A stretch of DNA of 64,000 bases from positions 11,408,001 through 11,472,000 of the forward strand of contig NC_083237.1 of the NCBI RefSeq assembly GCF_032191835.1. The letters are read 5' to 3'. Shown piece after piece: positions 23,254-29,200 of this stretch; the stretch's first letter is position 1; every line of letters starts with the position of its first letter. The DNA comes from Heteronotia binoei (lineage: Eukaryota). Position numbers: made by a program.

Positions 23254-26200
23254 TAAACTTATGAGAAAACTCTTAAGAACATAAGAACATAAGAGAAGCC
23301 ATGTTAGATCAGGCCAATGGCCCATCCAGTCCAACATTCNNNNNNNNNNNNNNNNNNNNNNNNNNNNNNNNNNNNNNNNNNNNNNNNNNNNNNNNNNNNN
23401 NNNNNNNNNNNNNNNNNNNNNNNNNNNNNNNNNNNNNNNNNNNNNNNNNNNNNNNNNNNNNNNNNNNNNNGGACCTCTGCTCCATATTTTTATCTAACCC
23501 CTTCTTGAAGGTGGCTACGCTTGTGGACGCCACCACCTCCTGTGGCAGTGAATTCCACATGTTAATCACCCTTTGGGTGAAGAAGTACTTCCTTTTATCC
23601 GTTTTAACCTGTCTGCTCAGCAATTTCATCGAATGCCCACGAGTTCTTGTATTGTGAGAAAGGGAGAAAAGTACTTCTTTCTCTACTTTCTCCATCCCAT
23701 GCATTATCTTGTAAACTTCTATCATGTCACCCCTCAGTCGACGTTTCTCCAAGCTAAAGAGCCCTAAGCGTTTCAACCTTTCTTCATAGGGAAGGTGTTC
23801 CAGCCCTTTAATCATTTTAGTTGCCCTTTTCTGAACTTTCTCCAATGCTATAATATCCTTTTTGAGGTGCGGCGACCAGAACTGCACACAGTACTCCAAA
23901 TGAGACCGCACCATCGATTTATACAGAGGCATTATGATACTGGCTGATTTGTTTTCAATTCCCTTCCTAATAATTCCCAGCATGGCGTTGGCCTTTTTTA
24001 TTGCAAACGCACACTGTCTTGACATTTTCAGTGAATTATCTACCATGACCCCAAGATCTCTCTCTTGGTCTGTCTCTGCCAGTTCACACCCCATCAACTT
24101 GTATTTGTAGCTGGGATTCTTGGCCCCAATGTGCATTACTTTGCACTTGGCCACATTGAACCGCATCTGCCACGTTGACGCCCACTCACCCAGCCTCAAC
24201 AGATCCCTTTGGAGTTCCTCACAATCCTCTCTGGTTCTCACCACCCTGAACAATTTAGGGTGCAGTCCAAGGGACTCTTGAGAGTCCCTTGGACTGCAAG
24301 AAGGTCAAATCAGTCAGTCCTAAGGGAAATCAACCCAGACTGTTTCCTGGAAGGTCAGATGCTGAAGCTGAAGCTCAAATACTTTGGCTACCATATGAGA
24401 AAGGAGCACTCCCTGGAGAAGATCCTGATGCTAGGAAAGACAGAGGCCAAAAGAAGGGGACGGCAAAAGATGCGATGGCTGGACAATGTTACTGATGTAA
24501 CAAACACGGATTTGAGCAGACTTCAGAGGATGATGGAAGACAGGAGGGCCTGGCGTGACTTTGTCCATGGGGTCGCAAAGAGTCGGACTCGACTGTGCGA
24601 CTGAACAACAACATGTGGAACTTATATGGAACCTCACTCTTCTTTTTTTTGTGTGGTGCTTTGGTATTTTGCTTTTTGCTTTCAGTAACTGTTGCATGTT
24701 CTGTCTAAATCCGCCCTGCTTTATAAAGGTAAAGGTAGTCCCCTGTGCAAGCACCAGTCATTTTCGACTCTGGGGTGACGTTGCTTTCACAGTAGACTTT
24801 TTACGGGGTGGTTTGCCATTGCCTTCCCCAGTCATCTACACTTTTCCCCCAGCAAGCTGGGTGCTCATTTTTTTTAGACAACCCTAAAAGCGAAGTGAAA
24901 TAATTTCAAGGTTGGCAAGATTCAAGTCCAAGAGAATCTTAGGACACCAAGATATTGAGCTTTCGAAGGTCAAAGCTCCTTTTGTTGGACAAAGAGAGTT
25001 TTAATTCTTGCAGTTTATACTGTGAAAAATTGTGTTGGTCTCTTAAGATGTTAGTGGATGTGAATCTGCTGAAGAGCACCCACCTGAAACTAATTCCTAT
25101 GACTGTCCCACTCTTGGGCCGTTTTCCCACTCACGTTTTACTGGCGCCACGACCATCCTGACGCCGGCGAATCTGCCTGGATTTCGCATCAGAAGCTCCG
25201 GCGCTCCCAGAAGCGCCGGCTACTTCCGTCACTAAGCCAGCGCAAACGGAAATCGCAAAGATGCAGGAAAACGTTTGCGCTGGCTTAGCGACGGAAAGCG
25301 CCGGCGCTTCTGGGAGCGCCGGCGCTTCTGTTGCGAAATCCAGGCAGATTCGCCGGCGTCAGGATGGTCGTGGCGCCAGTAAAACGTGAGTGGGAAAACG
25401 GCCTTGGAGAAGCTTGCATAATTGATGTGTTGATGTTGGTTAATGCAGGTTCACCAAGATGCTGTTATGTTTTTATAAGGGGAAAATGAAGGATTTTTAG
25501 GAAAAGGGAGGGACGTATGGTGTTCCTGGTCCCTTGGAAGACAGAAAAGGGGCAGCTCTGAATCAAACAAGCTTAAAGTGTGCATTTCTTTCTGTTTCAA
25601 ACAATTTTATTAGTAACATATGGTAATAAATTTCAATTTCTTACATCATTAATAATTACTTTTTTATCTATCCCATATATTACTTTCTACCCACCCCTCC
25701 CCCCGTTTCTTGACCCCCGCTGGTGTTATATACTTAAAATCTTAATATTAAAGGTACCCTTAATCAATAAGAACCAAAATTAATATCCTCCTCCCTCTTA
25801 TACTTAGTCATTATCAAAAATTGTCCAATGTCCTTTTATTTTCCACTCTTTTTCTATGTATCTTCTGAACTTAAAGTGTGCATTTCTTTGACTTCTAGGT
25901 TGCATTGCAGCTCGAACTGGCCTGGCACTACAGAATCAGAATGGCACAACACAGCTTACAGAGTTTGTTTTAATTGGCTTCCAAGTTCCCCAGTCAGTGG
26001 GGAACCTCCTCTTTGTGGTGTTTCTTGCAGTTTTCCTATTAACACTAGCCGGGAACGTCACCATCATCACACTGGTATGCCTTGCTCAACAACTCCAAAC
26101 TTCCATTTACTTCTTTCTCTGCAATCTCTCCCTCCTGGAGATCCTCTTTGTCTTGACAATCGCCCCAAAGATGTTGGTGAATCTGGTTGCCTCGAACAAA

Positions 26201-29200
26201 ACCATCTCTTTCCTTGGCTGCGCCGCCCAATGTTATTTCTACTTCTTCCTTGGCACTACTGAGTTCATCCTCATCGCTGTGATGTCATTCGACCGTTACA
26301 TTGCCATCTGCCACCCACTTTGCTATGCCATCATAGTGAATGGTCATGTCTGCACCATGTTGATCCTAGGTTGCTGGATAGGGGGTTTTCTTTCTACCAT
26401 TGGCCCCATCGTCCTGTTCTTTCAGTTGACTTTCTGTGGCTCTAATGTCATCGAACATTTCTTCTGTGACTATGCCCCAATGATAAAGCTGTCTTGCAAC
26501 GACATACAGTTCATCCTCGCCCTGGTGTCTATCCTCTCTTCAGTAGTGTTGCTCAGTTCATTGGCTGTGACTGTTATCTCTTATTTCTGCATTATCACCA
26601 CCACCACCTACCTTAGGGACCGTCTCTCCCCACACGTTCCCCAGAGAGTACTACGCTCAGGTTCACAAAACCTGTTGGTAGTCCCCGGGCCAAAGGAGGC
26701 CCGTCTAAAATCCACCAGGGATCGGGCCTTCTCAATAACGGCACCTTATTGGTGGAACCAGCTGCCGGAAGAGGTGCGGGCCCTGCGGGATCTAGGGCAA
26801 TTCCGCAGGGCCTGTAAGACAGCCCTCTTCCGGCAGGCCTATGACATTAACTGACAATGAAAAATATCTTGGATGGAACAAAATGTATCTATAGGCCGCC
26901 GGTTTTATTCTATCTTGTTTTTATTAATTTATGGTTTAATTGTATTTTTAAATGTTTTAAACTGAAGTGTTTGAATTATTATGTTGTAAGCCGCCCTGAG
27001 ACACTTAGGTGAGAAGGGCGGGGTATAAATCTTAATATAAATAAATAAATAAAATAAATCGTGCGTATGAACTCCAGCAAAGGCCGATTGAAGACATTTT
27101 CCACCTGCGCATCCCATCTTACTGTGGCTTCCATCTTCTATGGCAGTGCCATCTTCATGTATTCTTTGCCCAGTCAGGGACGCTCTCTGACTGTTCAGAA
27201 GGCTGTAGCTGTACTCACAGCTGTGGTGACCCCTTTGCTCAACCCTTTTATATACACTCTGAGAAATGAGAAGGTGAAGGAGGCCTTGAGAGACTGTCTG
27301 AAGAGGCAAACGCTGAATCTGTGAGTAGAACGGAGCCATCTTGGACTTTCCATTTCCCTGATCAGAACAGCCCATTTTGATTGTGGAGGTCTGATGGCAG
27401 AGTAGTGAGAATCTTATGTTTAGGGTACATATTATGGGTGGGAGGCAATTTTATCCATGACACTCTACAGATCCTGTAGAGATGGTAGACAGCGAGCCAG
27501 AAGAAAAGCTGAATGTACATCACAATGAGAGGTTAGCAGTCTGGGTCATAGGGTGGGGGGTATCTGGGAAGCAGAGATCATTTCATCGCCAAGGTATCGG
27601 ACATCAGGCATGCAATATCAGCTCTTGGTCTACCTGCAGAGGGATCTTTGCCTGTTGGGATGAATATTATTGAAAAAAAATGAGGGAGGAATCCAGTTTG
27701 GTGTAGTGGTTAAGTGTGCAGACTCTTATCTGGGAGAACCAGGTTTGATTTCCCACTCCTCCACTTGCAGCTGCTGGAATGGCCTTGGGTCAGCCATAGC
27801 TCTTGCTAAGTGGTTAAGTGCACTGACTCTTATCTGGGAGAACCGGGTTTGATTCCCCACTCCTCCACTTGCAACTGCTGGAATGGCCTTGGGTCAGCCA
27901 TAGCTCTGGCAGAGGTTGTCCTTGAAAGGGCAGCTGCTGTGAGAGCCCTCTTAGCCCCACCCACCTCACAGGGTGTCTGTTGTGGGGGGAGAAGATAAAG
28001 GAGATTGTAAGATGTTCTGAGACTCTGATTCGGACAGAAGGGTGGGGTATAAATATGCAGTCTTCTCCTCCTTTACAAAAAATGATCATCTATAGCCCAA
28101 ATCATTTGAGGTGAAATACAATTTAAAAAAAGGGGGGGGGGAATTATACAACTCAAGGGGTTTGCACCATCCAGCCACATTCCAGGAGAATATACCAAAA
28201 AAAAAAAGCCCCTCCTTCTTCTAGGCTTTGCAGCTTACTTTATGGAAACTTCATATGGTTTTCAAGGCGAGAGACTGTCAGTAGTGATTTGCCATTACCT
28301 GCTTCTGTGTCACAATCCTCGTGTTCCTTGGAGATCTCCCATCCAAGTGCTATGGGAGTGCTTACCTATGAAGTGCCTCCCTATGAAGCCCTACAAGTGT
28401 TTCCAAGTGCTTCCCTGTGAAGAAAGGTTAAAACGCTTGGGGTTCTTTAGCTTGGAGAAACGTCGACTGCGGGGTGACATGATAGAGGTTTACAAGATAA
28501 TGCACGAGATGGAGAAAGTAGAGAAAGAAGTCCTTTTCTCCCTTTCTCACAATACAAGAACTCGTGGGCATTTGATGAAATTGCTGAGCAGTCGGGTTAA
28601 AATGGTTAAAAGGAAGTACTTCTTCACCCAAAGGGTGATTAACATGTGGAATTCACTGCCACAGGAGGTGGCGCTGGCTACAAGCATAGCCAGCTTCAAG
28701 AGGGGATTGGATAAAAATATGGAGCAGAGGTCCAAAAGTGGCTATTAGCCACAGTGTGTGTGTGTGTGTGTGTGTATACACTGAGTGTTGGACTGGATTA
28801 GCCATTGGCCTGATCCAACATGGCTTCTTTTATGTTCTTATGTGACACAGAGTGCTGGACTGGATGGGCCATTGGCCTGATCCAACATGGCCTCTCTTAT
28901 GTTCTTATCTGACACTGAGTGTTGGACTGGATGGGCCTTTGGCCTGATCCAACATGGCTTCTCTTATGTTCTTATGCTAGCTAGGGCTGACCCTGCTCAG
29001 CTTCTGAGACATGATGCAATCAGGCTGGCCTGGGCTATCCATGGGATTTGGGTAAATTAACATTTAGAAAAGGATTTCTGCATCAACCCAAAATGCTGGT
29101 CCCCTACATTACCCATGTGTCTTGTCTGAAATCTTCCCTTCTGGACACAGAGCACAATTTTAGCAGCGAAATGTCACCCCTTCCTTCTTTTTATTCTGAT

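What the first reader, a model, noticed from the sequence alone, without database searches (positions are those of the whole stretch)
25922..27324. Open OR-L2 chimeric reading frame: TM1-TM5 of an olfactory receptor fused in frame to the L2 ORF2 C-terminus
The 455-bp L2 fragment inserted sense just after TM5 via acc-repeat microhomology and in frame. The frame runs 310 codons from 25922 to the L2 stop at 26854: five OR helices, then about 83 L2-derived residues in place of intracellular loop 3 and TM6-7. The orphaned TM6-7 half (27058-27324) is also still open and has its own ATG at 27067. Neither half has any other stop or frameshift. The simplest reading is a recent knockout; the interesting reading is a truncated or split receptor, or a segregating null allele.
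Basis: partly seen in the sequence, partly recalled or inferred. Interest (0 to 1): 0.65.

Follow-up and report, generated by a model that had tools for sequence, protein, structure and literature searches.

The report
Gecko odorant receptor broken by LINE
This is an ordinary, fairly recent gene death: a gecko smell-receptor gene was cut in two by a jumping-gene fragment and has also lost its start codon, although the public annotation still presents it as an intact gene.

Summary
The window is from the gecko Heteronotia binoei, not human. The described anatomy is real. An OR6M1-like olfactory receptor gene is interrupted at 26603-27057 by a 455-bp, 5'-truncated, sense-oriented LINE fragment. 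The OR frame runs into the element's native ORF2 frame for 83 codons, to the TGA at 26852-54. Both OR halves are otherwise open, and together they cover one Pfam OR profile.

The first in-frame ATG is residue 84. The in-frame fusion is a 1-in-3 outcome. The ATG at 27067 is an ancestral internal Met.

NCBI's 329-aa model borrows an ATG exon lying 43 nt past the neighbouring OR's stop. It also skips the insert at non-canonical AC..AA borders.

I found no decay: 1 of 55 conserved columns differs, and the relative-rate test gives 14 vs 10 (p = 0.54). Rough bounds allow 2-5% neutral divergence at most. dN/dS against the paralog is 0.20 and 0.11 but uninformative, because dS is about 0.85.

Verdict: a recent OR pseudogene. 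Expression and polymorphism are untested.

The parts
19382..19400 (+). Short upstream exon (ATG GAT ATG GAA AAC GGC G, then a GT donor at 19401) that NCBI's model uses to supply a start codon ('MDMENG'). It begins 43 nt after the last base of the stop (19337-39) of the neighbouring OR 18386-19339.
   Evidence: The pattern was found once; 0 of 100 shuffles gave any match. Sequence read. Model sequence.
25899..25921 (+). In-frame leader between an AG acceptor (25897-98) and the former start codon. It is read as (G)CIAARTG in NCBI's model.
25922..25924 (+). CTG at the position of the ancestral start codon. The paralog, P0002 and P0004 have ATG/Met here; Gekko japonicus P0003 has Ile.
   Evidence: DNA alignment; ortholog sequences.
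25941..25973 (+). First ATG downstream of the acceptor. It is out of frame, sits in the context agaATGg, and encodes MAQHSLQSLF then a stop.
25922..26602 (+). OR half 1 (227 codons; Pfam 7tm_4 positions 1-195). It is open. It shows 77% nt identity to the paralog and 84-87% aa identity to gecko orthologs.
26603..27057 (+). 455-bp 5'-truncated LINE (L2-type) fragment in sense orientation. No target-site duplication is evident.
   Evidence: Break in the blastn alignment to the paralog; junction reading; other copies in the window.
26603..26854 (+). The element's ORF2 C-terminal coding part, 83 codons plus TGA at 26852-54, read in its native frame as a continuation of the OR frame.
26855..27057 (+). 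The element's 3' UTR and A/T-rich tail. It has four overlapping AATAAA signals starting at 27040, 27044, 27048 and 27053, immediately before OR half 2.
27058..27324 (+). OR half 2 (88 codons plus TGA; 7tm_4 positions 196-277). It is open and has 82% nt identity to the paralog. The ATG at 27067 is the conserved internal Met of ..IVRMNS..
38668..39615 (+). Intact paralog (315 codons) used as comparator. It belongs to a different OR6M1-like clade.
11935..13647 (+). A longer, decayed copy of the same element family. It has an RVT_1 frame at 11935-12438, the ORF2 C-terminus at 13002-13241 (one stop), and a 3' UTR match at 13566-13647.
5898..6323 (+). Another 5'-truncated copy of the element. It has 79% nt identity over 221 nt, and its tail frame is open over 74 aa.

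Best explanation
This is a recently inactivated olfactory receptor gene (OR6M1-like) of Heteronotia binoei. A 5'-truncated L2-type LINE copy retrotransposed in sense orientation into the codons just after TM5. It happened to land in phase with its own ORF2 frame, so the OR frame now runs 83 codons into LINE sequence and ends at the LINE stop.

The insert also places four AATAAA signals in front of the TM6-TM7 half. By inference, transcripts should end there. Any protein would lack intracellular loop 3, TM6 and TM7, so it could not work as a receptor.

Separately, the canonical ATG has become CTG. The two halves still look intact because too little time has passed for further lesions.

The public 329-aa gene model is a homology-driven annotation construct. 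It borrows an ATG from a mini-exon next to the neighbouring OR's stop codon and skips the insert as if it were an intron.

Shown: the anatomy, orthology, missing ATG, lack of splice signals and lack of decay. Inferred: premature polyadenylation, no functional product, and the artefactual nature of the model.
For: - Species and orthology: the best hit is a 100%-identical H. binoei model, with gecko orthologs at 84-87%. The ortholog clade has 100/98 support.
- Insert borders fall at 26603 | 27058. P0002, P0003 and P0004 read ..IITTIVRMN.. uninterrupted.
- The element is the extreme C-terminus of an endonuclease+RT LINE ORF2: 53 of 80 identical at residues 796-875 of 877. It is read in the native frame.
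- Stop at 26852-54 and four AATAAA signals.
- CTG in place of ATG; the first in-frame ATG is residue 84.
- Borders are AC..AA. None of the 43 frame-keeping GT/GC-AG pairs (from 19 donors and 7 acceptors) lies at the borders.
- The mini-exon begins 43 nt after the neighbour's stop.
- Recency: 1 of 55 conserved columns differs, and 63 of 117 homologs have at least 1. Target-unique versus sister-unique changes are 14 vs 10 over 275 sites, p = 0.54. Under neutrality, open frames are expected only up to d of about 0.02-0.047. The amino-acid excess bounds d to about 0.02-0.03.
Against: - Absence of decay is equally what continued constraint would give. dN/dS against the paralog is well below 1 in both halves (0.20 and 0.11).
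- NCBI's pipeline did output an intact-looking model. I could not see its evidence, which might include RNA-seq.
- The canonical Met is also replaced (by Ile) in the otherwise intact Gekko japonicus model. The ATG may therefore be dispensable in this orthogroup, which weakens ATG loss as a sign of death.
- CTG sits in a G(-3)/G(+4) context and could initiate weakly (recalled knowledge).
- There are no expression or population data.
Confidence: 0.82

Rival explanations
1. The gene is still a working seven-helix receptor. Translation starts in the upstream mini-exon (19382) and the LINE fragment is removed from the mRNA, as NCBI's 329-aa model implies.
For: - The model exists and reads through cleanly.
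- The first intron, 19401-25898, has canonical GT..AG ends.
- Both halves show no decay.
- Removing the 455 bp restores the frame, since 455 = 3x151+2 and the halves are offset by 2.
- The Gekko ortholog also lacks the canonical Met.
Against: - The skipped stretch is bounded by AC..AA; shifted by one base the borders are CC..AA or CA..TA.
- The nearest GT is 19 nt inside the insert (ACC|GTCTCT). The nearest downstream AG is 20 nt into half 2, behind A-rich sequence with no pyrimidine tract.
- Four AATAAA signals precede half 2.
- The mini-exon lies next to the neighbouring OR's stop codon. That is typical of a start codon found by model extension (inference).
Confidence: 0.05
2. A truncated five-helix OR with an L2-derived cytoplasmic tail is made and has a role of its own. 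Alternatively, the two halves are made separately and reassemble as a split receptor.
For: - The chimeric frame is open for 310 codons and half 2 has an ATG at 27067.
- Co-expressed GPCR fragments can reassemble in other systems (recalled, not checked here).
Against: - The chimeric frame has no ATG before residue 84.
- An out-of-frame ATG at 25941, in a good context, comes first.
- The ATG at 27067 is an ancestral internal Met, not a new start.
- Half 2 has no evident promoter and lies behind poly(A) signals.
- The in-phase fusion is a 1-in-3 chance.
- In one search, P0001 was the only one of the 120 listed proteins (124-398 aa searched) with 100% identity. No chimeric or half-length product of this locus was listed.
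Confidence: 0.03
3. The insertion is a segregating null allele, or is specific to one haplotype or lineage, rather than a fixed loss. This is a special case of the best explanation.
For: - In Anolis carolinensis most recent LINE insertions, L2 included, are polymorphic at low frequency and fewer than 7% of L2 insertions are full length (PMC5389967, passages read).
- The OR halves look young.
- Segregating OR pseudogenes are known in humans and suspected in anole (PMC3308321 and PMC3342882, passages).
Against: - Two independent lesions, ATG>CTG and the insertion, sit on the same haplotype. That suggests some time without function.
- The protein set holds no second H. binoei protein for this locus; P0001's cluster has one member. 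This is weak evidence.
Confidence: 0.2
4. The interruption is an assembly artefact: an L2 copy wrongly placed inside an intact OR.
For: None specific. The window has three N runs elsewhere.
Against: - Both junctions are base-precise, with a typical 5'-truncation microhomology and a complete 3' tail.
- No N run lies within 2 kb.
- The annotated model comes from a contig of the same length as the one carrying the window's paralog, and it has to skip the same stretch.
Confidence: 0.02

Closest known systems
Olfactory receptor pseudogenes (birth-and-death evolution of the OR family)
   Same: This is an OR coding sequence disabled by a disruptive lesion. The review PMC3308321 (passages read) gives 20-60% pseudogenes in vertebrate OR repertoires. 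It defines an intact gene as continuous from initiation codon to stop, which this locus fails on both counts.
   Different: The lesion is a LINE insertion that stays in frame for 83 codons, not a point nonsense or frameshift mutation. Nothing else is broken yet.
5'-truncated L2 LINE insertions of squamates
   Same: It is a 3' end-only copy with the ORF2 C-terminus, a 3' UTR and an A/T-rich tail. Several other copies lie in the same window. In Anolis all truncated copies keep the 3' end and fewer than 7% of L2 insertions are full length (PMC5389967).
   Different: This copy landed inside a coding exon, in sense and in phase. The clade assignment (L2 rather than another CR1-like clade) is recalled from the C-terminal motif and was not tested.
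Segregating OR pseudogenes (human; suspected Ac129 in anole)
   Same: This is a young null allele of an otherwise intact-looking OR (PMC3342882 and PMC3308321, passages).
   Different: Polymorphism is not shown here, since only one haplotype was available. The reported cases are mainly SNP-type lesions.
NCBI gene model 'olfactory receptor 6M1-like [Heteronotia binoei]' (P0001, 329 aa)
   Same: It is the same locus. It is identical to both halves, with 100% identity over half 1.
   Different: The model adds MDMENG from 19382-19400 and omits 26603-27057. The omitted stretch has no canonical splice ends. I could not obtain its accession or supporting evidence (one search did not complete).

Membership tests
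Olfactory receptor (Pfam 7tm_4, OR6M1-like group) | Match to the OR profile over its whole length | tested here: met
   Half 1 matches 7tm_4 positions 1-195 (E 1.3e-21) and half 2 matches 196-277 (E 5.1e-11). Together they cover the 280-position model.
Olfactory receptor (Pfam 7tm_4, OR6M1-like group) | Family-conserved residues retained | tested here: met
   54 of 55 columns that are at least 95% conserved among 119 homologs are kept. The only departure is M62I. 63 of 117 full-coverage homologs have at least one departure.
Olfactory receptor (Pfam 7tm_4, OR6M1-like group) | Orthology to named gecko OR6M1-like genes | tested here: met
   The clade with Gekko japonicus and Eublepharis macularius proteins has 100/98 support. 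The tree used half 1 only: 39 rows, with P0029 dropped for low coverage.
Intact (potentially functional) OR gene | Continuous coding sequence from initiation codon to stop (definition in PMC3308321) | tested here: not met
   CTG stands at the start position. A 455-bp insert with an in-frame stop lies between TM5 and TM6.
LINE (L2-type) 5'-truncated insertion | Sequence is the 3' end of a LINE: ORF2 C-terminus, 3' UTR and tail | tested here: met
   The tail aligns to residues 796-875 of an 877-aa Anolis protein carrying PF03372, PF14529 and PF00078. In the window the same tail follows an RVT_1 frame. An A/T-rich tail is present.
LINE (L2-type) 5'-truncated insertion | Not a SINE: no tRNA-like or other small-RNA head | tested here: met
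   ARAGORN found 0 genes in 26400-27300. Rfam gave only a sub-threshold mir-671 hit, 25.5 bits against a gathering score of 65.
LINE (L2-type) 5'-truncated insertion | Placement in the L2 clade by RT phylogeny | not tested
   The insert has no RT and no reference LINE set is on hand. It is distinct from the window's CR1-like tails, which gave only weak tblastn matches (best E = 0.05). The name L2 rests on a recalled C-terminal motif.
LINE (L2-type) 5'-truncated insertion | Target-site duplication | tested here: inconclusive
   No duplication is visible at 26603 or 27058. There is only ACC microhomology at the 5' junction and a 1-base ambiguity. From recalled knowledge, CR1/L2-type elements often lack one.
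Spliceosomal intron (as the public model treats 26603-27057) | GT-AG, GC-AG or AT-AC termini at the exon junction | tested here: not met
   The borders are AC..AA, CC..AA or CA..TA. None of the 43 frame-keeping canonical pairs coincides with the junction.
Spliceosomal intron (as the public model treats 26603-27057) | Junction reads in RNA | not testable with these tools
   No transcript data are available.
Split or truncated functional GPCR | Each piece has its own start codon and expression signals | tested here: not met
   Half 1 has no in-frame ATG before residue 84. Half 2's ATG is an ancestral internal Met lying behind four poly(A) signals.

The most novel reading that the evidence does not exclude
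The locus is still in use. Translation starts upstream of the lost ATG, in a 5' coding exon or at the CUG. The independent loss of the canonical Met in Heteronotia (Leu) and Gekko (Ile), with otherwise intact frames, hints at this. The product would be a five-helix OR carrying an L2 ORF2-derived cytoplasmic tail that is retained by selection. Alternatively, the insert is removed by non-canonical processing to give a full receptor.
Probability: 0.05. Interest if true: 0.55.

Novelty: new member of a known kind. Interest (0 to 1): 0.12.

Why it matters
The biological significance is small. OR genes die constantly, and LINE insertion is one known route.

There are two practical points.
- The public annotation counts this locus as an intact OR by skipping a transposon with no splice signals and borrowing a start codon. 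Repertoire counts of 'intact' ORs taken from such models can therefore be inflated.
- If the insertion proves polymorphic among H. binoei lineages, it would be a clean natural OR knockout with a simple PCR assay based on a 455-bp size difference.

Tried and rejected
I rejected it as a test of post-insertion constraint because the paralog lies in another clade.
- Comparisons with the more distant window ORs were saturated: dS was undefined or 2.5, and several methods failed.
- A SINE or small-RNA origin of the insert: no tRNA, and only a sub-threshold mir-671 match on the opposite strand, E = 0.19. Rejected.
- Pfam finds nothing in the 81-aa tail.
- Canonical-intron reading of the insert: rejected.
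- The listing of cluster members, to obtain the model's accession and evidence, did not complete because the database is switched off.
- One paper search failed on a too-short term and was resent with longer terms.
- The paper search 'olfactory receptor' + 'pseudogene' + 'LINE insertion' returned 4 papers. I read passages from two (arowana and lynx). Neither describes a LINE-interrupted OR; the other two were seen only in the search listing.
- Searches found no paper on this locus or on H. binoei ORs among the listed titles and abstracts. This is not a claim that none exists.
- Not done: a protein-database search with half 2 or with the 6-codon exon; structure prediction; complex prediction.
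- Not possible: ortholog DNA, other H. binoei haplotypes and a genome-wide L2 consensus.
- Supplementary files were not opened. The OR tables of PMC3342882 and PMC4673495 might list comparable cases.

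
Full report
SOURCE

The first half of the interrupted receptor is 100% identical to an NCBI protein named 'olfactory receptor 6M1-like [Heteronotia binoei]'. The next hits are gecko proteins: Gekko japonicus 85%, Eublepharis macularius 84%, and an unnamed contig protein 87%. In that search 698 proteins had E <= 0.001 among 1625 candidates, and 120 were listed.

The window also carries a V2R-type 7TM exon, three intact OR frames, and CR1-like and other LINE pieces. 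It is gecko DNA, not human. Three N runs exist and were left alone.

OBSERVATION

The stop-to-stop frame 25892..26854 is open, and 25922-26851 is 310 codons.

blastn against the paralog region gives two blocks:
- target 25923-26603 against paralog 38669-39349, 524/684 identical (77%)
- target 27058-27343 against paralog 39349-39634, 237/289 identical (82%)

Both blocks meet at the same paralog base, so the foreign stretch is 26603-27057, or 455 bp.

Pfam places 7tm_4 positions 1-195 in the first half and 196-277 in the second. Three gecko orthologs read ..IITTIVRMN.. straight through this point.

WHAT THE INSERT IS

Its 81-residue translation has no Pfam family. It aligns, with 53 of 80 identical, to residues 796-875 of an 877-aa Anolis carolinensis protein carrying endonuclease and reverse-transcriptase domains. 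It also aligns, with 73 of 79 identical, to the last residues of a 309-aa 'uncharacterized protein' of H. binoei. That search found 2 proteins with E <= 0.001 among 94 candidates.

Two more copies lie in the window. One is at 5898-6323. The other is at 12999-13647, downstream of an RVT_1 frame at 11935-12438. That longer copy continues upstream as ..GPTYLQDRL.. in the same register. The OR frame therefore flows into the element's native ORF2 frame.

There is no tRNA-like head and no credible Rfam match.

This makes the insert a 5'-truncated LINE 3' end. It consists of the ORF2 C-terminus, a stop at 26852-54, a 3' UTR and an A/T-rich tail with four AATAAA signals at 27040-27053. It differs from the window's CR1-like tails, which gave only weak tblastn matches (best E = 0.05). 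The clade name L2 is my recall of the C-terminal motif; no tool tested it.

At the 5' junction the OR ends ..ACC ACC and the element starts ACC TAC CT, with one extra ACC between. Microhomology is plausible but not proven. No target-site duplication is visible.

Codon 25922 is CTG. It aligns with the paralog's ATG. Orthologs P0002 and P0004 start with Met at that position.

Between the upstream stop and residue 84 (26171) there is no in-frame ATG. The first ATG met, at 25941, is out of frame and terminates after 10 codons. The 'open chimeric frame' therefore has no start codon of its own.

The ATG at 27067 is the ancestral internal Met of ..IVRMNS...

Of the three sense entry phases, one gives 83 codons and the others 25 and 3. 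The in-phase fusion is a 1-in-3 outcome.

The added tail has no hydrophobic segment; the maximum Kyte-Doolittle value over 19 residues is 0.08.

THE PUBLIC MODEL

NCBI's 329-aa protein reads MDMENG + GCIAARTG LALQ...IITT | IVRM...TLNL.

MDMENG comes from 19382-19400, followed by a GT donor. That exon begins 43 nt after the stop codon of the neighbouring OR at 18386-19339. It joins an AG acceptor at 25897-98.

The model then omits exactly the 455-bp element. Those borders are AC..AA, or CC..AA and CA..TA if shifted by one base. None of the 43 frame-keeping GT/GC-AG pairs around the insert coincides with the junction. The nearest GT is 19 nt inside the insert, and the nearest downstream AG is 20 nt into half 2 behind A-rich sequence.

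I read the model as a homology-guided construct, not evidence of splicing. I could not see its accession or supporting data (one search did not complete).

Half 1 was searched and the element tail. Half 2 was only scanned against Pfam and aligned, and the 6-codon exon is too short to search. The joined sequence was neither assembled nor searched.

HOW OLD IS THE LESION, AND IS THERE CONSTRAINT?

- Conserved sites: among 55 columns that are at least 95% conserved in 119 homologs, the target departs at one (M62I). 63 of 117 full-coverage homologs have at least one departure.
- Tree: on half 1 (39 rows; P0029 dropped for coverage) the target sits in a gecko ortholog clade with 100/98 support. Its end branch is 0.11, against 0.044 for its sister P0002 and a median of 0.099.
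- Relative rate: target-unique versus sister-unique changes are 14 vs 10 over 275 comparable sites (p = 0.54). The other three outgroup choices give 20 vs 12, 16 vs 11 and 17 vs 11, all non-significant. Most target-unique changes are conservative; R134C, G218V and Y223C are not.
- Neutral bound from the open frames: 945 bp would stay free of stops and frameshifts with P = 0.5 up to d of about 0.005-0.011, and with P = 0.05 up to about 0.02-0.047. These figures assume indel:substitution ratios of 0.05-0.15.
- Neutral bound from amino-acid changes: the small excess bounds neutral divergence to about 0.02-0.03.
- Element age: the coding part keeps CpG o/e of 0.57, against 0.30 for the window.

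All of this fits a recent loss. It equally fits ongoing constraint, so 'still open' is weak evidence either way.

Against the paralog at 38668, NG86 gives dN/dS of 0.20 (half 1, dS 0.85) and 0.11 (half 2, dS 0.84).

The paralog groups with a different Eublepharis gene in another clade. The comparison therefore averages over a very long shared history of selection and cannot detect a short neutral tail. Ortholog DNA is needed and was not available.

MECHANISM (INFERENCE)

Transcripts from the OR promoter would meet the element's AATAAA cluster before TM6. Ribosomes would find no good start for the OR frame. Any product would lack IC3, TM6 and TM7. The locus is a pseudogene.

CAVEATS

The Gekko japonicus model also lacks the canonical Met (it has Ile) while the rest of its frame is intact. 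Either both are early pseudogenes or the canonical ATG is dispensable in this orthogroup. That lowers the weight of the ATG loss but not of the insertion.

Whether the insert is fixed is unknown. In Anolis most young LINE insertions are rare polymorphisms (PMC5389967, passages), and segregating OR pseudogenes are known (PMC3308321 and PMC3342882, passages).

COMPARISON AND NOVELTY

This is a new example of two well-known things: OR pseudogenisation (20-60% of repertoires; PMC3308321) and 5'-truncated LINE insertion.

My searches listed no paper describing this locus. I read passages from two of the four papers found, and neither was relevant.

Interest is low. The useful by-product is the annotation discrepancy.

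Noticed in passing
P0003 (Gekko japonicus ortholog) versus window 25922: The Gekko model also lacks Met at the canonical start (..TEIAPRNQSS..) and carries an 80-residue N-terminal extension, yet the rest of its frame is intact. Either this is independent start-codon loss in two gekkonids, or the canonical ATG is not the real start in this orthogroup.
   Followed up: partly
window 19382-19400: The start exon of the public model lies 43 nt past the stop of the neighbouring OR (18386-19339), probably within that gene's 3' UTR. It may reflect read-through or chimeric OR transcripts, or model extension in search of an ATG.
   Followed up: partly
P0121 (H. binoei 'uncharacterized protein LOC132575897', 309 aa): Another annotated protein of this genome ends in the same LINE ORF2 tail: residues 230-308, with 73 of 79 identical. 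It is probably another transposon-derived or transposon-terminated gene model.
   Followed up: no
window 2723-3679 (+): This open frame matches the complete 7tm_3 profile (E 3.8e-85), so it is the 7TM exon of a V2R-type vomeronasal receptor. It sits next to the OR cluster and runs up to an N run.
   Followed up: no
window 18386-19336, 38668-39612, 49283-50248 (+): Three apparently intact OR genes lie on the same strand as the broken one (7tm_4 E 4e-52, 2e-41 and 2e-47). The window is part of an OR cluster.
   Followed up: partly
window 56312-59720 (+): This is a near-full-length LINE. Consecutive long frames carry an endonuclease (Exo_endo_phos, 56771-57409) and an RT (RVT_1, 58046-59263), broken by only a few stops. 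It belongs to a different family from the element in the OR.
   Followed up: no
window 23309-24304 (-) and 28110-28748 (+): Two CR1-like ORF2 C-terminal fragments (..LGLFSLEKRRLRGDMIEVYKIMH..FFTQRVINMWNSLPQEV..) flank the broken OR on either side. Pfam finds no family in the first.
   Followed up: no
window 51418-52288 and beyond: A GC-rich tandem repeat is open in several frames on both strands (repeating ..RPAKASPRPPLVPGGPPESLEGLQGPAEAAGKPRGTRRWSRKAFQ..). It abuts an N run.
   Followed up: no
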